DNA of 64,000 bases from an uncultured virus (IMG/VR IMGVR_UViG_3300044972_000796). Its lineage: Duplodnaviria > Heunggongvirae > Uroviricota > Caudoviricetes. Under the pieces are notes generated by a model, which was not told the origin of the DNA, did not search any database, and worked only from the letters and a program-made list of their open reading frames with translations. This document shows, piece by piece, positions 2,914 through 30,051 of the stretch (position 1 is its first letter; each line of letters starts with the position of its first letter). The DNA lies in IMG/VR virus record IMGVR_UViG_3300044972_000796; one strand, written 5' to 3'. Position numbers and translations under genes: made by a program.

Positions 2914-3044
2914 AGGATACTAACAGCAACTTTTAACATGGAAAAACTTTTGGTCGTGAGTTCGAATCTCACTTTCCGATCAAGCCTAAAAAGCAGTCGG
3001 TTGTAGCTCAGTGGTAGAGCAAAAGTCGTTAAAAATGTATCCTG
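2914..3044 (+). ncRNA. Y RNA-like (YrlA-type) ncRNA with circularly permuted tRNA-like domain; array unit 1
   Basis: Closing stem AGGATAC/GTATCCT plus ACAGCAA. T arm (2956-2972) precedes D arm (3006-3020). Acceptor stem is closed by a linker loop. Upstream of a Ro60-like gene. Confidence 0.75.
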
Positions 3045-3059
3045 TTTCACCAAAATGTA

Positions 3060-3597: not shown

Positions 3598-5010
3598 ATG
3601 AACGCATTTGTAACAGCAGTAGCAAATCAAGAAGCCCGTACCGAAAATGGTATGAAGGCACGTAAGTCAACAGCTTCGGCTTGTGTTGACTTGTTCTACA
3701 AGATCGGCGCAAGCCGTGGTAAGAACATCACAGGCGACTTCACAGCCGCTTATGTAGAAAACTCTGACGTAGCACTACGCATTGCACAATGGGCACGTGA
3801 TGTCCGTGGCGGTGCTGGTGAACGTCAATTGTTCCGAGATATTCTAGTACATCTAGAAAAGCGTGACCCAGACGCCGCTTTGGCTCTTCTAAAGAAGATT
3901 CCAGAAGTAGGTCGTTGGGATGACATCTTTGTCTTCTCAAACCCAGTTCTGAAGTCAGCCGCTTATACCATGTTGGGCGATGCCCTTCGTGCGCAAAACG
4001 GATTGGCTGCAAAGTGGACTCCTCGTAAGGGTAAGATTGCGGCTGAAGTACGAGCATTCTTCGGAATGACTCCGAAGCAGTACCGCAAGTCATTGGTAAC
4101 AATGACCACAGTTGTTGAAACCCAAATGTGTGCAGGAGATTGGGATAACATCAATTTCAGTCACGTTCCTTCTGTGGCTGCTCGCAACTACAAGAAGGCA
4201 TTCGGCCGTCACACTCCTGCATTTGCAGAGTATGTTGCCAAGTTGGTAAGTGGTGATAAGACTGTTAAGGTTAACGCCAGCGCAATCTTCCCACATGACG
4301 TGTTAAAGGGAGTCATCGGTAGCTACCGTGCTAAGTTGGATAAGACAGAAACTGACCACATTGTGGCACAGTGGAATGCTTTGCCAAACTACGTTGGAGA
4401 TGCAAGCATCATGCCAATTGTAGACGTTAGCGGTTCTATGTCCTGCCCAGCAGGCAAGAACACTAATGTGACTTGCATGGATGTTTCAATTAGCTTGGGC
4501 TTGTACCTAGCAGATAAGAACAAGGGCGTGTTCAAGGACACTTTCTTGACTTTCTCAGACAAGCCACAACTTGTTACTCTAAAGGGTAACATTGTTGACA
4601 AGGTTGCTCAAATGAGCAAGAGTGATTGGGAAATGAGCACTAATTTGCATGCCGCTATGGACAAGATCTTGAGCGTTGCAGTTAAGGGTTCAGTACCAGC
4701 AGGCGACATGCCAGCCATGTTGCTAATCTTGTCAGACATGCAGTTTAACCAATGTGCTCGTTACGACGACACATCAATGCAAATGATCGAACGCAAGTTC
4801 ACAGATGCAGGTTACACTGTGCCACAGATTGTTTTCTGGAACCTAAACAGTTCAGACAACGTGCCTGTTAAGGCTGACAAGAGTGGTGCCGCATTGGTAA
4901 GTGGATTTAGCCCAAGTATAATGACTAGCTTGCTAGCCGCTGATTTGGATCAGTTCACTCCAGAAGGCATCATGCTTAAGACTGTAATGAGTGATCGTTA
5001 CGCTTTGTAA
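3598..5010 (+). CDS. DUF2828 family protein (Ro60/TROVE-like helical domain + vWA domain)
   Basis: RTENG, ARDVRGGAGER, GRWDD, LAAKWTPR, VPSVA, vWA MIDAS DVSGSM, ILSDMQF, IVFWNL, LVSGFSP motifs. Confidence 0.85.
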   Translation: MNAFVTAVANQEARTENGMKARKSTASACVDLFYKIGASRGKNITGDFTAAYVENSDVALRIAQWARDVRGGAGERQLFRDILVHLEKRDPDAALALLKKIPEVGRWDDIFVFSNPVLKSAAYTMLGDALRAQNGLAAKWTPRKGKIAAEVRAFFGMTPKQYRKSLVTMTTVVETQMCAGDWDNINFSHVPSVAARNYKKAFGRHTPAFAEYVAKLVSGDKTVKVNASAIFPHDVLKGVIGSYRAKLDKTETDHIVAQWNALPNYVGDASIMPIVDVSGSMSCPAGKNTNVTCMDVSISLGLYLADKNKGVFKDTFLTFSDKPQLVTLKGNIVDKVAQMSKSDWEMSTNLHAAMDKILSVAVKGSVPAGDMPAMLLILSDMQFNQCARYDDTSMQMIERKFTDAGYTVPQIVFWNLNSSDNVPVKADKSGAALVSGFSPSIMTSLLAADLDQFTPEGIMLKTVMSDRYAL

Positions 5011-23427: not shown

Positions 23428-24039
23428 TTAACGACCTATTACCATAAAACGTGTGTATAACGGCAGTTCTAGTTCACCTGCCCAAACGATATTGATGCCG
23501 CATTGTTGTTTAAAATGCTCCAAACTGTCTGCTGTACGAATGTGTTCGGGTATGTTATAGTTGTTACCTTGCAACACTAATAAACTGTTATAAGGTATGC
23601 CAGTTTTCCACAAATCAAATTGATCTTGTGTAATGTGTTCGCAACTAGTATTGATTATAATATCGCTGTCACTACGAATAGTACACATATCAGAAGTAAC
23701 TGCTTTAAACTTTCCTTGCATTTCCTCTTTCTTATTCATCATAGTAGCAACAGATTCGCATGTTGAATCTATATCAATGCTGCGAATAGTTGCTACGGGA
23801 ATTCTACTTTGAAATAACATACTGGCCAGCACTCCGACCCATCCGCCGTGTATGTCAATAGCAAAGGGCTTAGGCATTACACAATCAACTTGCGGATGTA
23901 CTGTCATTTCCAATGCATCAATCAACCACTCTTTACTTTTAAGTTGGCCACTCCAAAATGCATCCATGGTTCGCATAGGGTCTTTACTTTGTCTAATGGC
24001 TTGCATCCAGTAGTGTAGGTGCTCAGTATCAATTAACAT
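23428..24039 (-). CDS. class I SAM-dependent methyltransferase-like
   Basis: IHGGWVG, SIDID, DM, IINTSCEH. Confidence 0.65.
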   Translation of the reverse strand: MLIDTEHLHYWMQAIRQSKDPMRTMDAFWSGQLKSKEWLIDALEMTVHPQVDCVMPKPFAIDIHGGWVGVLASMLFQSRIPVATIRSIDIDSTCESVATMMNKKEEMQGKFKAVTSDMCTIRSDSDIIINTSCEHITQDQFDLWKTGIPYNSLLVLQGNNYNIPEHIRTADSLEHFKQQCGINIVWAGELELPLYTRFMVIGR

Positions 24040-25042
24040 GTATCGGTATTATCTTATTCTTTGTTGTAAAATCTATTTTACGTTTGGGCATGTTTGTTTC
24101 AAACCCACACCAGCATCCATTTTGCATACAAATTGCTGGAACAATTTCTGGAGAAAATTTAGCAGTAAAGTCTATGTCGTATATATTATGAACGGTGTTA
24201 TTTTTATATAACAAATTGCTACATACTCCAACAACCGAGCCGTCAATTTTGATTGCAAACCAATCTACTCCTACATTGCACTCCCATCCTTGGAAATTGT
24301 TTAACCGATTTAAAAGGATGTAATTATCTGGCACTTTTTTCTTCTTACCATCAAGTCCGGTAACGTAAGGAATAGTTCGAGGCGTCTTGTTGTTCCACCA
24401 GAACCACAGTGGATTTGCACCCCTTGCTCTAACTTTTCCTATAACTTCCTTTTGTTCATCTGTGTAGTTGACGTCTTTATGAATAATTTCGCCATACCTG
24501 ATAGACCATCGCCGCTTACTTTTCTTATAATATTCTATAGTTTCTAAACATTTGTCCCAGTTTCCCGGATCCATTAGTACAGTAGTAACTCCAATCACAC
24601 CCTGTTCATAGAGTAAATCAAGCAACTCTCTATTGTGTTCTACTTTAGAGAATTGTTGATGATGACTAATCAGCACATAGTCTAAGTAAGGTGCTGCTTC
24701 TCTCCACCACGATAATTTTTTCGAACCGTTGGAAATTAAATTAAAAATACAATTGTAATTTTCTTTGAAGTGTTTTATAAAATCAAGGAAACGAGACCAG
24801 TGTGTAACCTCTCCGCCTAACAGACAAAATTCAAATCGTCTTTTATTAGTGTTTGCAATATAATAATCTAATACGTGAGATAAATTTTTAATCAGCAGAT
24901 CATAGTCAGGCCATTTGTATTCAGCAGCATGCGATTCTGGCCAGCAATACCAACACTGATAGTTACATATATCGCCAACAGAGAAATCTATTCTTAGATA
25001 GTCTTCTGGCCACTTTTGTTCTACTTTTAGTATTGTATTCAT
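24029..25042 (-). CDS. radical SAM/SPASM protein
   Basis: CNYQCWYC, LGGE, ISNG, CNVG...C...CxxxxCxC. Confidence 0.85.
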   Translation of the reverse strand: MNTILKVEQKWPEDYLRIDFSVGDICNYQCWYCWPESHAAEYKWPDYDLLIKNLSHVLDYYIANTNKRRFEFCLLGGEVTHWSRFLDFIKHFKENYNCIFNLISNGSKKLSWWREAAPYLDYVLISHHQQFSKVEHNRELLDLLYEQGVIGVTTVLMDPGNWDKCLETIEYYKKSKRRWSIRYGEIIHKDVNYTDEQKEVIGKVRARGANPLWFWWNNKTPRTIPYVTGLDGKKKKVPDNYILLNRLNNFQGWECNVGVDWFAIKIDGSVVGVCSNLLYKNNTVHNIYDIDFTAKFSPEIVPAICMQNGCWCGFETNMPKRKIDFTTKNKIIPIHVN

Positions 25043-26010
25043 TTGTATTTAGGTATTTTACTATCGGCACTGCTAACACATGTTGGCGTGGAACAAAGTT
25101 TAGGATCTTCGAACAAATTAAATCCTGTTAACACATTGCCTAAAGGAGCATCATGACAACTGTAACTTCTTTTTATTTGATCGCCTCTTATTATAACACT
25201 TTGAAATCCCGAGTTACACTGCCATCCTTTAAACTTATTAAATCCGAATGCGTTGAATCTTTCAGCTTGGTCAAACAAGTATTCCGTATTATTTACATCG
25301 TATAAGGCTATCTGATAAGTCTCTTCACCATCGGAGTGCTGTGGGAATCCAGTTTGCATCGTGTGAATCATTTCATCAGTGTATCCATCTACTAATCTAC
25401 TGGCTGTTGGATCGCTTTGCGGCTTAAGAGTTACATTGATACCACGTGCGGCAAATCTTTCTAGTCTGGTATACAACTCATAAAACTTTTCTGGAACCAT
25501 AACTTGATTTATAGTAACGTGAACGCCATCATACATCAGTTGTAAAATCTTATCGCCAAACTCCTGTTCCTTGGCAAACTCGTCGTGAAAACTAGCTGTT
25601 ATGCTTCTACGTTGTAACATGGAGGTTGCATTGGCCCAACGTTTCCACCAAGCCAAACTAGGACTCAAATTAGTAGTCATATGTACAGTTTGATATGACA
25701 CACCATCGTCTAAGTGATTAGTTAACTCTAGTAGATTTTTATATGCTGTTGGTTCTCCGCCACTGAAACTCCAATGAAATTGATTGAATCCGTTATTGCG
25801 GGCTTGGCGTTTGATTTCGTTAACCACATTTTTATACACGTCAATTGGTTGGTGATCTGGTGTGTCACTTCTGGCATAAGGCCAACAATAACTGCATTTA
25901 TAGTTACAGAATCTTCCCAAAATCCAACTTGTGGAAAACAAACGGTTGACCAACATGGTGCGTTGTCCAAAACGGATAATGTTATCAAATGGAATGGTAG
26001 AATGGCTCAT
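25039..26010 (-). CDS. radical SAM/SPASM protein
   Basis: CNYKCSYC, FSGGEP, TTN, CNSG...SC...C. Confidence 0.88.
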   Translation of the reverse strand: MSHSTIPFDNIIRFGQRTMLVNRLFSTSWILGRFCNYKCSYCWPYARSDTPDHQPIDVYKNVVNEIKRQARNNGFNQFHWSFSGGEPTAYKNLLELTNHLDDGVSYQTVHMTTNLSPSLAWWKRWANATSMLQRRSITASFHDEFAKEQEFGDKILQLMYDGVHVTINQVMVPEKFYELYTRLERFAARGINVTLKPQSDPTASRLVDGYTDEMIHTMQTGFPQHSDGEETYQIALYDVNNTEYLFDQAERFNAFGFNKFKGWQCNSGFQSVIIRGDQIKRSYSCHDAPLGNVLTGFNLFEDPKLCSTPTCVSSADSKIPKYK

Positions 26011-26038
26011 TGACAGTATTTACAAATAAGTATATAAT
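26010..26038 (+). promoter_or_regulatory. sigma70 promoter for the tRNA-like RNA (overlaps a divergent late promoter)
   Basis: TTGACA-17-TATAAT; TAAATA on the minus strand lies within the spacer. Confidence 0.85.
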
Positions 26039-26044
26039 ACAATG

Positions 26045-26162
26045 GTAGACGTGAGTGGAACTTGGTATACCTCCTCCTAGTAAGCTGACCCCCAGCTGAA
26101 CGGAGGGAACTGGGCTAGGCTATTAGCTGCCTTTGTAGGTTCGAATCCTACCGTCTACACCA
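26045..26162 (+). tRNA. atypical tRNA-like RNA (Leu-type scaffold, 24-nt expanded anticodon loop)
   Basis: GTAGACG/CGTCTAC-A-CCA, T arm GTAGG-TTCGAAT-CCTAC, D loop GGAACTTGGTATAC, long variable arm; the CCTCC/GGAGG stem encloses an extra hairpin. Confidence 0.75.
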
Positions 26163-26191
26163 TTTTAACACACAGGCACAGAAAGTTATAT

Positions 26192-26548
26192 ATGAAAAAG
26201 GCAATTGTTACACTAGCAACATTGTTGTCGCTATCTGCATTGGCAGAAACACCTTACGATAAATTCAATGTAGTTGACGAAACAACCATGAATGCAAAAC
26301 ATTTTACTCTCAAATCGACAATTGAGTGGGTGTTTACAAAGGACGTTAACGGGCTATGTGAGTGGGAGGCAAAGCGACGTGGCACAAAACCGTTCAACGT
26401 CGGAAAAAAGATCATGGATGGATGTGCATTCTGGAACAAGGACGAAAAAGGTAACGATGTGTGCATGGTTATTACCAATATTAAAACTGATTACTGGACT
26501 CTTGGACACGAAGTCCGACATTGCTTCCACGGAGGATTTCATAAATGA
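26192..26548 (+). CDS. secreted protein with HExxH motif
   Basis: Signal peptide MKKAIV...ALA; GHEVRHC. Confidence 0.65.
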   Translation: MKKAIVTLATLLSLSALAETPYDKFNVVDETTMNAKHFTLKSTIEWVFTKDVNGLCEWEAKRRGTKPFNVGKKIMDGCAFWNKDEKGNDVCMVITNIKTDYWTLGHEVRHCFHGGFHK

Positions 26549-27081
26549 AAAAAGTAGCAAGTAGCCCAGAACGGCATACCTTTCAAAAAGAAGGGTATAT
26601 CAAGCGTTGCGAGGAAAAGGGAGAAGTACCTAATCCCGACTATGTTCAAATGTACGAAACTTGGCGGGAACAAGAAGCAGCGGCTATTGTAGATCCCAAG
26701 TGGCAAAAGAACAACATGGAATACGATTTGCGTAGTAGCAAAGAAATGTGTGACAAAGTTAAAGCCAGCAATGCTTATGCTCAAAACTTGTATGCCGCTA
26801 TGTGTAACATGACTTGGCAAAGTCGTGAGTTTTGGCAAGAGCTAAAATGCGAAACTTGGTCATGCAGTTGGCGGCATAGTGGCGGCATCATTTCTGACAT
26901 GCAGGAAAAAGGTGACTATATTGATTGGTACTGTAGTGGTATAGGTAATGCAGAATTAGGCAACGGCCTAACCGGTGCCAATGGTGCTGGATATGTACCA
27001 GAAGGTACTGTTACTGAAGAAATTGAATTGGACTTGAACCGTTTAGGTTGGAGATCAGTTCCTTATAGTGTTAATGAATAA
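26545..27081 (+). CDS. hypothetical protein
   Basis: ORF with GGAGG RBS, coupled to upstream gene. Confidence 0.75.
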   Translation: MKKVASSPERHTFQKEGYIKRCEEKGEVPNPDYVQMYETWREQEAAAIVDPKWQKNNMEYDLRSSKEMCDKVKASNAYAQNLYAAMCNMTWQSREFWQELKCETWSCSWRHSGGIISDMQEKGDYIDWYCSGIGNAELGNGLTGANGAGYVPEGTVTEEIELDLNRLGWRSVPYSVNE

Positions 27082-27096
27082 CAGAGTAAATACACA

Positions 27097-27267
27097 ATGG
27101 AAAAACTAATATTTAATGTGGAAGATATATTTGAAGACATCCCTGGAGATCCGGACAATGTTATTATGAAAATTCCTCCAGAGATTCTCGAACGTAATGG
27201 ATGGAACACAGGCGATACACTAAACATTGAAATTGAAGACGGTGCAATCGTCATAAGCAAAGTATAA
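27097..27267 (+). CDS. AbrB/MazE-like small DNA-binding protein (56 aa, not in ORF track)
   Basis: IMKIPPEILERNGWNTGDTLNIEIEDGAIVISK swapped-hairpin pattern. Confidence 0.7.
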   Translation: MEKLIFNVEDIFEDIPGDPDNVIMKIPPEILERNGWNTGDTLNIEIEDGAIVISKV

Positions 27268-27485
27268 TGGCAAAAGACGATATTATTGAATTGACGGGTT
27301 CGGTCGAAGAGGTATTGCCAGGAAGTATGTTCAGGGTGAAGGTAGCAAACATTCCCAACACACTGCTTTGCTACATGGGCGGAAGACTCAAACAACATAA
27401 AATTAGAATCATATTGGGTGACAATGTTAAAATAGAAGTTAGCCCATATGATTTATCCAAAGGCAGAATCGTATTTAGGTTGTAA
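27267..27485 (+). CDS. infA: translation initiation factor IF-1
   Basis: MAKDDIIELTGSVEEVLP...GRLKQHKIRIILGDNVKIEVSPYDLSKGRIVFR. Confidence 0.95.
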   Translation: MAKDDIIELTGSVEEVLPGSMFRVKVANIPNTLLCYMGGRLKQHKIRIILGDNVKIEVSPYDLSKGRIVFRL

Positions 27486-27487
27486 TC

Positions 27488-28156
27488 ATGAATAGCATAA
27501 TGGAAACAGTTTGCTGGGTTTGTATGCAAGTTAAACTTAAAAGTAAACCTGGCATCAGTTTCCAAAATTTGCTAACTTTATTACGCAGACAATTTCGTCA
27601 TCAAGGCTTTGGTCTCAGCATCAAAAGCAAACGTGATAAGTTTTTAGATTCTGAAGAATTTTATGTCAATGCATATTATGATGCTGAAGACGATTGCAAT
27701 GGTGAGATTCCTATAGAAGTTGTTGTGCATCATAACTTTGATAAAGATGTTGTATGGGATCAAAAACATGCCACTGAATTTCTAATTCAAATATTTGATG
27801 CAGTTGTACACGAATACAAGCATCAGCGTCAAAGTGTCAAGAGAAAATATCAAACATACGTAGCACATACTCGATCCCCGTATAATCAATATCTTGCAGA
27901 TCCAGATGAAGTAGATGCATATGCAGTTTCAATTGCAATCGAACTTTGTAGAAATTTGGGCAAGTACAGGGCATTACGATACATGGGAAAGTTTAGTAGC
28001 TTGTCCAGACTCAAGTTCAACGGCAGATATGTTAGCCCGTGTTTGGCATCATATTTTGGTGCATTTGGAAATTTGCCCAATCCAGTGCTAAAGCGTTTAG
28101 CCAAAAAGATCTATGTACGGTTACAAAAGGTTGACACGGACGTACTTTTCCTGTAA
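27488..28156 (+). CDS. hypothetical protein with HExxH motif
   Basis: VHEYKHQRQ ... DEVDAYA; paralog of 36867-37592. Confidence 0.7.
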   Translation: MNSIMETVCWVCMQVKLKSKPGISFQNLLTLLRRQFRHQGFGLSIKSKRDKFLDSEEFYVNAYYDAEDDCNGEIPIEVVVHHNFDKDVVWDQKHATEFLIQIFDAVVHEYKHQRQSVKRKYQTYVAHTRSPYNQYLADPDEVDAYAVSIAIELCRNLGKYRALRYMGKFSSLSRLKFNGRYVSPCLASYFGAFGNLPNPVLKRLAKKIYVRLQKVDTDVLFL

Positions 28157-28159
28157 AAT
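28131..28159 (+). promoter_or_regulatory. sigma70-type promoter
   Basis: TTGACA-17-TAAAAT with extended TG. Confidence 0.75.
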
Positions 28160-28191
28160 ACAACGTATATTAACCAGCATTAGGGCGTACC

Positions 28192-28905
28192 GTGAATAAA
28201 AACGTAACCTTTCCTGTTCAGCAAGTTTTGGAATTGGCCTGTGCGGCCCAACGCATTAACGGTGAGTATATCAAGGATGTTATCATTCCTGTGTTCTCTG
28301 ACCAAACACCAGATGGCAAAATCCAACTAATGTATCACAAGCATGGTAATAAAATTCTAATGCTGTGTACACTGGATCACACCAACTGGTCTGCTGATCC
28401 AAAAGAAGCACCAATGCCGCTGAGAGTATTGCCCGAAGATATTGCACAAGCAGAAGAAATTCGAAACTACTTTAAGCGTCTATTGTTTGCGGCCATCGAA
28501 GGCGAGAACGAATTTCAAACTAATATCAATAGTATCCTAAGCGGCGAGACTGTTAAATCAAATCAATTTGGTTATGTGGCTTGTTTGCCCAGTGTATATG
28601 TACGTGATCATGCAAAGAATCAAATTAAAAAAATTGCACGAAAATTGGACGAAGGATTTGTTGCAGACATCGGTGCCAATCTAAAGGATCTCGATTGCGA
28701 AATACTTGAGTCAGTTCGCTCAAAGAACTTTGACGCATACAATGTTTGTGCTATAATAGATAACAAGATGGCATCTTGGTTTAGCAAGGCTCCTTTGAAA
28801 CTAGGAGCATGCGTAATAGTCAAAGCCAAAGTAAAGGATCACAGCGAGCATTGGTTGCATAAGAATCCAGTGACCCGTTTAAACTATGTAAAGGCGGCAC
28901 AATGA
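28192..28905 (+). CDS. hypothetical protein
   Basis: Long ORF, GTG start downstream of promoter. Confidence 0.75.
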   Translation: MNKNVTFPVQQVLELACAAQRINGEYIKDVIIPVFSDQTPDGKIQLMYHKHGNKILMLCTLDHTNWSADPKEAPMPLRVLPEDIAQAEEIRNYFKRLLFAAIEGENEFQTNINSILSGETVKSNQFGYVACLPSVYVRDHAKNQIKKIARKLDEGFVADIGANLKDLDCEILESVRSKNFDAYNVCAIIDNKMASWFSKAPLKLGACVIVKAKVKDHSEHWLHKNPVTRLNYVKAAQ

Positions 28906-29327
28906 AACAAGAATTAGACGAGCTTCTTTGTAAACGGTATCCGCAAATGATGATCAATCGTAATCTACCGATGACAGAAACTTGCATGTGTTGGGGCTTT
29001 GCTTGCGGAGATGGTTGGTTCAACATTTTGGATCAACTTATGGGAAATATACAACATCACCTCGATTGGAAGAATAAAAACGGTGTAGTTGTAGCACAGG
29101 TTACCCTAGATCAAGTTAAAGAAAAATTTGGTACACTGCGTTTCTATTACAGCGGTGGAGATGATGAAATTAGCGGCATGGTGGCAATGGCAGAAAGCAT
29201 GAGTGGTGTCACTTGCGAGGAGTGTGGTAGTCCTGGTAAACAGGTAGGCGGTGGATGGGTTACTACCCTATGCGAAGAACATACCACCGCAAGGTCTATT
29301 GTTTATAACGAAGAAGGAACTGAATGA
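28902..29327 (+). CDS. conserved phage hypothetical protein
   Basis: CGDGW, QVKEKFGTLRFY, TCEECG motifs. Confidence 0.75.
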   Translation: MKQELDELLCKRYPQMMINRNLPMTETCMCWGFACGDGWFNILDQLMGNIQHHLDWKNKNGVVVAQVTLDQVKEKFGTLRFYYSGGDDEISGMVAMAESMSGVTCEECGSPGKQVGGGWVTTLCEEHTTARSIVYNEEGTE

Positions 29328-29488
29328 TGATTAAATTTAAACATATATTGTCAATAGCAATTTTAGTAATGTGCGTTTTCCAAGTATTATACACATGGGG
29401 AAGTCCTGACAATACAGGATGGTTGATAGCCTTGATTGGCTGGATTGAAGTTACTTTTCAACAACGTAAAGAAGGAGTTACACAATGA
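29324..29488 (+). CDS. small membrane protein (54 aa, not in ORF track)
   Basis: Two hydrophobic segments; ATGA overlaps at both ends. Confidence 0.55.
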   Translation: MMIKFKHILSIAILVMCVFQVLYTWGSPDNTGWLIALIGWIEVTFQQRKEGVTQ

Positions 29489-30051
29489 TTACAATGAAAG
29501 AATGGATGGAATTGGTTGGCTATCGAATTACCGAAGGTAGCGGCTATATGTGGCAGTGCTACGGTTCCGATGCTTATGCACTAGTTTCATGGAACGGCGA
29601 ACATGACGGTCACAGTTTTACGGTCATCTTTGATACAAAAGATCAAACTGTTTACGAAGTACAGGCGCACGACTATGTACATCAACGTGCTTATCGTATG
29701 ATCAACCCAGACTTCCAAAAGAAGAATCGTAAAGAAGCCAAACGTCGAGATGTGAGCAAAGATGAAGCATGGGACGATGTTGACTATGTTGATCTTGAAG
29801 TGGCCGACGATTTTATCCAGAAGTGTTTGGCAATCTCAGCTGGGGAAGATTATGACACACGAGTGCAAGTTCCGGTTGACTTTTCGGATGAAGAACTGTT
29901 ACAATACATGAAACTAGCACACGAACGTGATGTTACTTTTAACGAATTTGTTGAAGAAGCCTTGCGTCATGCACTGGGTGAATACGAAGCGGGTCGTCTT
30001 ACCAAAAAAGATGCTAAGAAATTTATTGAAGAAAAATACAGCGAGATATAA
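29485..30051 (+). CDS. hypothetical protein
   Basis: AAGGAG RBS; possible C-terminal ribbon-helix-helix. Confidence 0.75.
   Translation: MITMKEWMELVGYRITEGSGYMWQCYGSDAYALVSWNGEHDGHSFTVIFDTKDQTVYEVQAHDYVHQRAYRMINPDFQKKNRKEAKRRDVSKDEAWDDVDYVDLEVADDFIQKCLAISAGEDYDTRVQVPVDFSDEELLQYMKLAHERDVTFNEFVEEALRHALGEYEAGRLTKKDAKKFIEEKYSEI

What the first reader, a model, noticed from the sequence alone, without database searches (positions are those of the whole stretch)
26045..26162. 118-nt tRNA-like RNA with a hairpin inserted in its anticodon loop and its own perfect promoter
The acceptor stem is perfect with A73-CCA, the T arm is canonical, the D loop is Leu-like and the variable arm is long. However, the anticodon stem (CCTCC/GGAGG) encloses 24 nt (TAGTAAGCTGACCCCCAGCTGAAC) containing an AGCTG/CAGCT hairpin. 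A TTGACA-17-TATAAT promoter puts +1 at about G1, so no RNase P leader would be needed. It lies 23 kb from the tRNA cluster, at the edge of the radical SAM island. Established: LeuRS largely ignores the anticodon. Inference: it is a chargeable but non-decoding tRNA (an aminoacyl donor or nuclease-resistant decoy), or a tRNA with a small non-group-I intron. The intact arms argue against simple decay.
Basis: partly seen in the sequence, partly recalled or inferred. Interest (0 to 1): 0.72.

Follow-up and report, generated by a model that had tools for sequence, protein, structure and literature searches.

The report
Leucine-tRNA mimic with sealed anticodon arm
Large uncultured phages carry a strongly conserved gene for an RNA built like a leucine tRNA whose codon-reading arm is sealed shut by an interchangeable hairpin, so it cannot translate but is probably loaded with leucine for a job off the ribosome that has not been identified.

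Summary
The RNA (26045-26162) and its 12/12 promoter are real. It is neither a decayed tRNA nor an intron-bearing one. It belongs to a single-copy family of jumbo phages: 252 distinct sequences, with compensatory changes in the acceptor, T, variable and anticodon-position stems. The 24-nt 'insert' is one of many unrelated closed hairpins at that position, often tetraloop-capped; 0 of 252 have a canonical anticodon arm. What is fixed is the E. coli leucine identity set (A73 and U48 in 252 of 252, Leu-type D loop), CCA (237), a bulged variable arm with a triloop, a promoter placing +1 on base 1, and a weak EF-Tu pair at 51-63 (252 of 252, against 0 of 14 of the phages' own tRNA-Leu). Best reading: a LeuRS-charged, non-decoding RNA that partly avoids EF-Tu and carries leucine to a non-ribosomal partner. 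No such transferase was found in the phages, so a decoy role is a close rival; charging and expression are unshown. Look-alikes exist in T5 (RNA1) and cultured phages CBB and BF. The scan noted what is probably the same family on other DNA (e1-6115244). Not in Rfam or the papers searched.

The parts
26010..26038 (+). Sigma-70-type promoter, -35 at 26010-26015 and -10 at 26033-26038; predicted +1 is G1 (26045), so the transcript would need no 5' leader
   Evidence: 12/12 consensus; -10 box 6 nt before base 1 in 148 of 152 distinct relatives. The start site is inferred, not mapped.
26045..26162 (+). 118-nt tRNA-like RNA gene (class II, Leu-type frame, no anticodon)
26045..26051 (+). Acceptor stem 5' strand; pairs with 26152-26158, followed by A73 (26159) and CCA (26160-26162)
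   Evidence: 5 of 7 pairs show two-sided changes; A73 in 252 of 252, CCA in 237 of 252
26052..26072 (+). U8 and D arm: 3-bp stem with one bulged base, A14 A15, G18 G19, A20a, A22
   Evidence: Register fixed by 29 relatives with an unbulged C12-G23 stem against 223 with bulge plus G12-C23; A14/A15 in all 78 protein-anchored sequences
26073..26106 (+). Sealed arm at the anticodon position: 5-bp stem, 5x4 internal loop (AGUA/GAA, like a loop E/S-turn motif; label recalled), 5-bp hairpin
   Evidence: Internal-loop type in 67 of 252; other relatives have unrelated arms from 12 nt upward
26107..26134 (+). Long variable region: short linker, outer stem, 2-nt bulge, inner stem, triloop, one unpaired base, U48
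   Evidence: 6 of 7 pairs show two-sided changes; triloop in 239 of 252, with a middle U in 237; U48 in 252 of 252
26135..26151 (+). T arm with the weak EF-Tu pair A51-U63 (26137/26149)
   Evidence: A-U in 249, U-A in 2, G-U in 1 of 252; energy table from PMC3239215
25039..26010 (-). Divergent radical SAM gene whose start codon overlaps the first base of the -35 box; usual but not obligatory neighbour
   Evidence: PF04055; same orthologue is the nearest upstream ORF in 74 of 113 loci; RNA found in 61 of 80 loci of this gene
26192..27485 (+). Genes probably co-transcribed downstream: two hypothetical proteins, an AbrB/MazE-like protein and translation initiation factor IF-1
   Evidence: no terminator-like site in 24000-30000. 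Other sub-clades have different downstream genes.

Best explanation
A phage non-coding RNA derived from a class II tRNA frame. Host RNA polymerase starts at G1, so no RNase P cut is needed (inferred); the 3' end is trimmed to CCA like a tRNA (inferred). The D/T elbow, A15-U48, A20a and A73 let the host LeuRS charge it with leucine (inferred from the E. coli identity set, about 0.7). The anticodon arm is a neutral closed cap of any length, so it cannot decode (shown by comparison, about 0.97). The fixed weak 51-63 pair lowers EF-Tu binding by roughly 1 kcal/mol against the phages' own tRNA-Leu (model-based). The product is a leucyl-RNA pool kept away from translation and handed to a non-ribosomal partner, which probably recognises the family-specific bulged variable arm. 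One candidate user is the host Leu/Phe transferase feeding the phage's own ClpS/ClpP; this last step is speculative.
For: 0 of 252 canonical arms; A73 and U48 252 of 252; CCA 237 of 252. In loci fetched by neighbouring proteins and detected without N73, CCA or T-stem sequence, 78 of 78 distinct RNAs have A73, CCA, U48 and A51-U63. E. coli leucine identity is A73, A15-U48, G18G19 and A20a, and tRNA-Leu lacking the anticodon arm stays chargeable (PMC9976931, passages). Predicted EF-Tu affinity is -9.1 to -9.7 kcal/mol for the family against -10.2 to -11.0 for 13 scorable of 14 phage tRNA-Leu, none with A51-U63. S. aureus non-proteogenic tRNA-Gly uses A51-U63 the same way (PMC7826273, passages). 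The phages keep normal tRNA-Leu genes and one copy of this RNA in each of 10 records. Look-alikes in cultured phages share A73 and a weak 51-63 pair. ClpS is in 9 of 11 records and ClpP is in the window.
Against: No aminoacyl-tRNA-using enzyme was found: Leu/Phe transferase 0 of 5, Acetyltransf_6, CDPS, MprF-type, FemAB each 0 of 11, ATE 0 of 5; only 3 of these records are near complete. The Leu/Phe transferase determinants (G3-C70 with A4-U69; PMC4105747) are not conserved: G3-C70 in 133 of 252, G4-C69 in 146 of 152. A51-U63 occurs in 28 of 144 ordinary phage tRNAs and could be inherited from a Tyr-type T arm. The gap to bacterial tRNA-Leu means (-9.9 to -10.4) is only 0.5-1 kcal/mol and EF-Tu is abundant. 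15 of 252 lack encoded CCA. ClpS also occurs in cultured jumbo phages where the model found no such RNA. Charging and expression are not shown.
Confidence: 0.4

Rival explanations
1. Counter-defence decoy: an abundant tRNA body without an anticodon soaks up host toxins or sensors that attack class II tRNA bodies or CCA ends, sparing real tRNAs. It may be charged, but the leucine is not passed on.
For: Strong leaderless promoter for fast early output; closed arm offers no anticodon loop to cut; no phage transferase found; the same design recurs in unrelated phage groups.
Against: A decoy should copy the victim, yet the T stem departs from the phages' tRNA-Leu in every member and the variable arm has its own conserved shape. 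No defence system is linked to it by any result here.
Confidence: 0.28
2. Scaffold or regulator: the tRNA frame gives stability and processing, and the working part is the bulged variable arm with its triloop, bound by a phage protein; or the RNA titrates LeuRS or tRNA-processing enzymes.
For: Variable-arm geometry and triloop middle U conserved in 237 of 252 while the other arm is free; same radical SAM gene beside it in two sub-clades with different downstream genes.
Against: A scaffold need not fix A73. The radical SAM link is not obligatory: 16 of 77 loci with enough flank lack the RNA nearby, and in record G014 it sits in the tRNA cluster.
Confidence: 0.2
3. Cis element: a tRNA-shaped 5' leader that stabilises or processes the early operon behind it.
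For: It starts the transcript and no terminator follows; in some relatives the promoter drives the 178-aa gene directly with no RNA.
Against: Downstream genes differ between sub-clades; in several phages the next gene is a tRNA-Ser inside the tRNA cluster; A73-CCA and leucine identity would not be needed.
Confidence: 0.08
4. A tRNA with a small intron (for example a GUA triplet left in a 7-nt loop after removing 17 nt), or a decayed tRNA.
For: A GUA triplet lies near the anticodon position in the window's arm type; ARAGORN with the intron option returns a call.
Against: That call is tRNA-Thr with a 21-nt intron and a broken stem. Base 33 would be A, not U. 185 of 252 lack this arm type, and 12-nt arms leave nothing to splice. 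No splicing endonuclease or RtcB in 0 of 5 records. Covariation excludes decay.
Confidence: 0.02

Closest known systems
Bacterial class II tRNA-Leu (RF00005), including these phages' own tRNA-Leu(UAA, UAG, CAA)
   Same: 7/5 acceptor-T geometry, D loop A14 A15...G18 G19 U20 A20a, A15-U48, A73, CCA, long variable arm; tRNA-Leu is the next-best hit of the family model in several genomes.
   Different: No 7-nt anticodon loop (0 of 252); bulged D stem in most; longer bulged variable arm behind a linker; A51-U63 in place of G51-C63 or C51-G63; promoter abutting base 1, whereas the promoter-adjacent tRNA-Leu(UAA) genes have 17-20-nt leaders.
Phage T5 RNA1 and RNA2 (NC_005859, annotated 'tRNA-like stable RNA with unknown functions') and T4 RNAC/RNAD
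   Same: T5 RNA1 has a Leu-type D loop, an expanded arm at the anticodon position, a long variable arm and A51-U63; homologues in 487 phage records. T4 RNAC/RNAD roles are stated as unknown (PMC9697503, PMC3014915, passages).
   Different: Longer (144 nt), no encoded CCA in T5 or 4 relatives read, no own abutting promoter seen; the family model scores them only 11-16 bits, so homology is not shown.
Unnamed 112-113-nt RNA of cultured phages CBB (KU574722.1:290372-290484, annotated tRNA-Val), BF, XbC2, Kaldavass and Kuerle
   Same: Leu-type D loop, sealed arm with a terminal tetraloop, bulged variable arm, A73, weak 51-63 pair; 16 records match the CBB RNA.
   Different: Lies inside tRNA clusters, CCA not encoded, arm has a conserved 7x7 internal loop, variable arm ends in a tetraloop; 36.6 bits on the family model, near tRNA-Leu scores, so common descent is open. 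Not functionally described.
Non-proteogenic tRNA-Gly of Staphylococcus aureus
   Same: Charged tRNA body tuned against EF-Tu by A51-U63, used by a non-ribosomal transferase (PMC7826273, passages).
   Different: Keeps a normal anticodon arm; partner (FmhB/Fem) is known, while FemAB was found in 0 of 11 of these phage records.
YrlA (tRNA-like Y RNA, RF02553) and the tRNA-like domain of tmRNA
   Same: tRNA elbow mimic without a decoding anticodon (PMC4201824, passages).
   Different: YrlA is permuted, with its ends in the Ro60-binding stem; this RNA is linear and ends in A73-CCA. No YrlA match here, and no alanine G3-U70 rule (14 of 252).

Membership tests
Decoding tRNA (RF00005) | 7-bp acceptor stem, T arm, discriminator and CCA | tested here: met
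Decoding tRNA (RF00005) | 5-bp anticodon stem with a 7-nt loop (Y32, U33, R37) | tested here: not met
   0 of 252 on a strict test; 13 of 152 passed a lax test, 11 of them 6-bp tetraloop hairpins whose 7-nt-loop form is 12.8 kcal/mol worse in the two evaluated, plus one 4-bp tetraloop arm
LeuRS substrate (E. coli identity set) | A73, A15-U48, G18G19, A20a, U54-A58 | tested here: met
   A73 and U48 252 of 252; G18G19 151 of 152; D loop in 78 protein-anchored sequences; set taken from PMC9976931. D-loop letters were part of several search patterns.
LeuRS substrate (E. coli identity set) | Actual leucylation | not testable with these tools
   Needs an aminoacylation assay
Intron-containing tRNA | Conserved anticodon restored after removal; bulge-helix-bulge or self-splicing intron; splicing enzymes | tested here: not met
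Non-proteogenic aminoacyl donor tRNA | T stem predicted weak for EF-Tu relative to its amino acid class | tested here: met
   -9.1 to -9.7 against -10.2 to -11.0 for the phages' tRNA-Leu; additive model from PMC3239215
Non-proteogenic aminoacyl donor tRNA | A dedicated aminoacyl transferase | tested here: inconclusive
   Six transferase families absent from 5-11 records, 3 near complete; a host enzyme or an unrecognised fold remains possible
YrlA / Y RNA | Permuted order with a Ro60-binding terminal stem | tested here: not met
   No RF02553 match at E<=10 in 25900-26300; linear order with free CCA
Allo-tRNA (8/4 or 9/3) | 8- or 9-bp acceptor with shortened T stem | tested here: not met
   7/5 in alignment A1; definition from PMC5389517
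T5 RNA1 / T4 RNAC class | tRNA frame with expanded anticodon-position arm in a phage; sequence homology | tested here: inconclusive
   Architecture alike but model scores 11-16 bits

The most novel reading that the evidence does not exclude
Several groups of large phages have built 'translation-proof' leucyl-RNA carriers, charged by the host LeuRS but blind to codons and tuned away from EF-Tu, to feed leucine to a non-ribosomal reaction during infection, such as N-terminal leucylation that sends host proteins to the phage's ClpS/ClpP, or an unrecognised phage transferase. This would give a function to the class of phage tRNA-like RNAs that T4 and T5 have left unexplained for decades.
Probability: 0.25. 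Interest if true: 0.88.

Novelty: new variant of a known kind. Interest (0 to 1): 0.62.

Why it matters
Phage tRNA-like RNAs of unknown function (T4 RNAC, T5 RNA1/RNA2) are an old loose end. This family is large enough to show which positions are selected: leucine identity, CCA, a weak EF-Tu pair and a bulged variable arm are kept, while the anticodon arm is free as long as it is closed. That yields sharp, cheap tests (LeuRS charging, EF-Tu protection, partner pull-down), and look-alikes exist in cultured phages. It is also a natural version of the minimal anticodon-less LeuRS substrate. In practice these genes are missed by default tRNA scanners or mis-annotated as Val, Arg, Phe or Thr tRNAs with introns.

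Tried and rejected
Expression: two metatranscriptome runs held small shares of the stretch. One has a contig identical to 26021-26189, but it starts inside the promoter and contigs show no strand or ends, so transcription is not shown. Sarcin-ricin-loop mimicry: the AGUA/GAA internal loop looked like it (recalled), but only 67 of 252 have it. Intron: rejected. tRNA-His-like G-1: base -1 varies among relatives. Alanine identity: G3-U70 in 14 of 252. Cellular homologues: 7 pattern matches in the GTDB genome scan, none a real RNA. Cultured members of the same family: none by blastn with two family members or tblastn with the 178-aa neighbour; the DNA ligase's best cultured matches are below 37% identity. 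Partner enzymes: class Ia synthetase, CCA enzyme and YqeY each 0 of 11, transferases as listed above. The radical SAM neighbour has no specific family (all NCBIfam hits far below cut-off; virus-only clusters; weak PDB hits), and the 178-aa neighbour has no informative match. A first script missed all loci through a wrong loop length (fixed in 14). Model R1 was built with the D stem one register off; the register reported is the one counted, so R1 scores are slightly conservative. Two look-alikes were set aside before the final counts: L523 (normal 7-nt loop, different variable region, 2 identical stretches) and L509 (75 nt, no variable arm).

Full report
Observation. The element is as described: a 7-bp acceptor stem, A73-CCA, a canonical T arm, a Leu-type D loop, a long variable region, and a 34-nt arm at the anticodon position. 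The promoter is a 12/12 match ending 6 nt before G1. Default ARAGORN and Rfam miss it; Rfam tRNA gives 25.1 bits against a cut-off of 29, and no other family fits. Folding energy is unremarkable against shuffles, so the case rests on comparison.

Setting. The window is part of a jumbo phage genome: relatives lie on records of 200-400 kb carrying about 30-40 tRNA genes. No assembly is held for the window itself. The RNA lies between a divergent radical SAM gene (25039-26010) and an operon with two hypothetical genes, an AbrB/MazE-like gene and IF-1.

A large family. Of 80 viral loci fetched with the downstream 178-aa protein, 79 carry the RNA. Of 80 fetched with the radical SAM protein, 61 do; 3 of the other 19 are cut by a contig end and 16 have other sequence there. 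Together they gave 254 distinct sequences; two look-alikes were set aside, leaving 252 of 94-119 nt. Each of 10 records searched holds one copy, far above the next-best hit, an ordinary tRNA. A pattern scan of the bacterial and archaeal genome collection gave 7 matches, none real. In 61 aligned sequences 96.4% of cells pair and 15 of 28 pairs change on both sides, in the acceptor, anticodon-position, variable and T stems. Decay and assembly error are excluded.

The 'insert' is not conserved; closure is. The arm ranges from 4-bp tetraloop hairpins of 12 nt, through 6-bp UUCG or UUUG hairpins, to long irregular helices. The window's type, with an AGUA/GAA internal loop resembling a loop E motif (label recalled), is 67 of 252. 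Identical variable arms occur with arms of three or four different lengths. None of 252 has a canonical anticodon arm. The intron reading fails: short arms leave nothing to splice, base 33 would be A, ARAGORN's intron call breaks the stem, and no splicing endonuclease or RtcB was found in 5 records.

What is conserved. A73 and U48 in 252 of 252, CCA in 237, a purine at base 1 in 250. The D stem register is fixed by 29 sequences with an unbulged C12-G23 pair against 223 with a bulge and G12-C23. Because several patterns contained D-arm letters, I repeated the count on loci fetched by proteins and detected by stem geometry plus a minimal D-loop word: 132 of 160 loci, 78 distinct RNAs, all with A14 A15, U48, A51-U63, A73 and CCA. 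These are the E. coli leucine determinants, and tRNA-Leu without an anticodon arm remains chargeable (PMC9976931, passages). The rest of the acceptor stem varies, which argues against Ala identity; Tyr identity needs the anticodon (same table). The variable arm keeps a stem, a 2-3-nt bulge or internal loop, a second stem and a triloop with a middle U (237 of 252), a shape that the phages' tRNA-Leu lack. The -10 box lies 6 nt before base 1 in 148 of 152, whereas promoter-adjacent ordinary tRNAs had gaps of 8-20 nt in 5 of 7 cases. A leaderless start is thus inferred; I saw the Nanoarchaeum precedent only as a search listing (PMC10100707).

A new clue: the T stem. Pair 51-63 is weak for EF-Tu in all 252 (A-U in 249). 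The additive model of PMC3239215 (passages and section 9) gives -9.1 to -9.7 kcal/mol, against -10.2 to -11.0 for the phages' own tRNA-Leu (13 scorable of 14, none A-U) and -9.9 to -10.4 for bacterial tRNA-Leu classes. S. aureus non-proteogenic tRNA-Gly shows the same pair and a similar gap (PMC7826273, passages). Against this, 28 of 144 ordinary phage tRNAs also have A51-U63, the effect is a few-fold, and the T arm may simply descend from a Tyr-type tRNA, which gave many of the blastn hits.

Partners. The same radical SAM orthologue (64-100% identity) is the nearest upstream gene in 74 of 113 loci, across sub-clades with different downstream genes. The link is not obligatory: in record G014 the radical SAM locus lacks the RNA, which sits with its own promoter in the tRNA cluster. 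This favours a free RNA over a cis leader. No known aminoacyl-tRNA-dependent transferase, class Ia synthetase, CCA enzyme or YqeY was found in 5-11 records, 3 near complete. ClpS is in 9 of 11 and aligns with solved ClpS across the NDD-TPM stretch (that this is the degron pocket is recalled), and ClpP is in the window. That makes host Leu/Phe transferase a candidate user, but its preferred acceptor-stem bases (PMC4105747, passages) are not conserved here, and ClpS occurs in cultured jumbo phages where the model found no such RNA.

Known relatives. T5 RNA1, annotated as a tRNA-like stable RNA of unknown function, has a Leu-type D loop, an expanded arm and A51-U63 but no CCA. T4 RNAC and RNAD are still of unknown role (PMC9697503, PMC3014915, passages). 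The model scores these at 11-16 bits. Closer in design is a 113-nt RNA of the cultured phage CBB, annotated tRNA-Val, with relatives in 16 records; the four others read all have A73, a sealed arm, a bulged variable arm and a weak 51-63 pair. Homology is not established. YrlA and allo-tRNAs do not fit.

Literature. Ten searches and passages of three reviews (PMC7609411, PMC13191261, PMC9693318) and one preprint gave no description of this family. The library lacks most subscription and older papers, including the original T4 and T5 work, and I did not read supplements, where PMC5389517 lists irregular tRNAs. The scan's own notes include what is probably the same family (e1-6115244) and several similar phage RNAs; they are unchecked and not counted as support.

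Verdict. Shown: a conserved, single-copy, non-decoding tRNA-like RNA family with leucine identity, a free but closed anticodon-position arm and an abutting promoter. Inferred: leaderless transcription, charging by host LeuRS (about 0.7), reduced EF-Tu binding. Function: off-ribosome leucine carrier 0.40, defence decoy 0.28, scaffold or enzyme sink 0.20, cis leader 0.08, intron or decay 0.02. Expression was not shown. New variant of a known but unexplained kind; interest 0.62.

Noticed in passing
window 2920-3050 and about 3120 onward (+): Y RNA-like genes: a YrlA match at 2938-3047 (29.1 bits, E 0.005, below cut-off) with a second similar start motif downstream, directly before a 470-aa DUF2828/DUF7788 protein at 3598-5010 that may be a Ro60-like partner.
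   Followed up: partly
L202:6345-6466 (-): A roughly 120-nt linear tRNA-shaped gene with CCA whose anticodon arm carries a stem resembling the phage's Y RNA stem: a possible tRNA/Y RNA hybrid.
   Followed up: no
L200:7643-7734, L201:14787-14878, L202:2108-2199, L203:10896-10987, L204:5599-5690, L419:3428-3526: A 92-99-nt tRNA with anticodon UAU and a long variable arm in all five tRNA clusters and in G014; Ile tRNAs are normally short-armed, so its amino acid is in doubt.
   Followed up: no
L523:292-384, L660, L661: A viral tRNA with A73, the same D and T arms as the divergent family members, but a normal 7-nt loop with anticodon AGA (Ser codon): a possible mis-sense tRNA or a decoding sister of this family.
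   Followed up: partly
L668:1501-1613 (KU574722.1:290372-290484), L675-L678: The look-alike RNA of cultured phages CBB, Kaldavass, BF, XbC2 and Kuerle has a conserved symmetric 7x7 internal loop in its sealed arm that resembles bacterial 5S rRNA loop E (recalled, not tested).
   Followed up: partly
window 26008-26030 (-): The radical SAM start codon overlaps the -35 box, with a TAAATA-like word a few bases upstream on the minus strand in most close relatives: possibly a T4-type late promoter (recalled) driving a near-leaderless mRNA.
   Followed up: no
L381, L383 (upstream of the radical SAM gene) and L177:800-860: Where the RNA is absent, the same kind of promoter sits 5-6 nt before the ATG of the 178-aa gene, suggesting leaderless mRNAs.
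   Followed up: partly
L200:5873-5950, L202:6569-6646, L203:10731-10811: tRNA-Leu(CAA) genes with a short variable region, unusual for bacterial tRNA-Leu.
   Followed up: no
L204:471-887: A permuted tmRNA gene at the head of a phage tRNA cluster.
   Followed up: no
L418:265-3200 (-): ClpS lies in a run with Hsp70-like, small heat-shock-like, heme-oxygenase-like and bilin-reductase-like ORFs (names other than ClpS are my reading of the translations).
   Followed up: no
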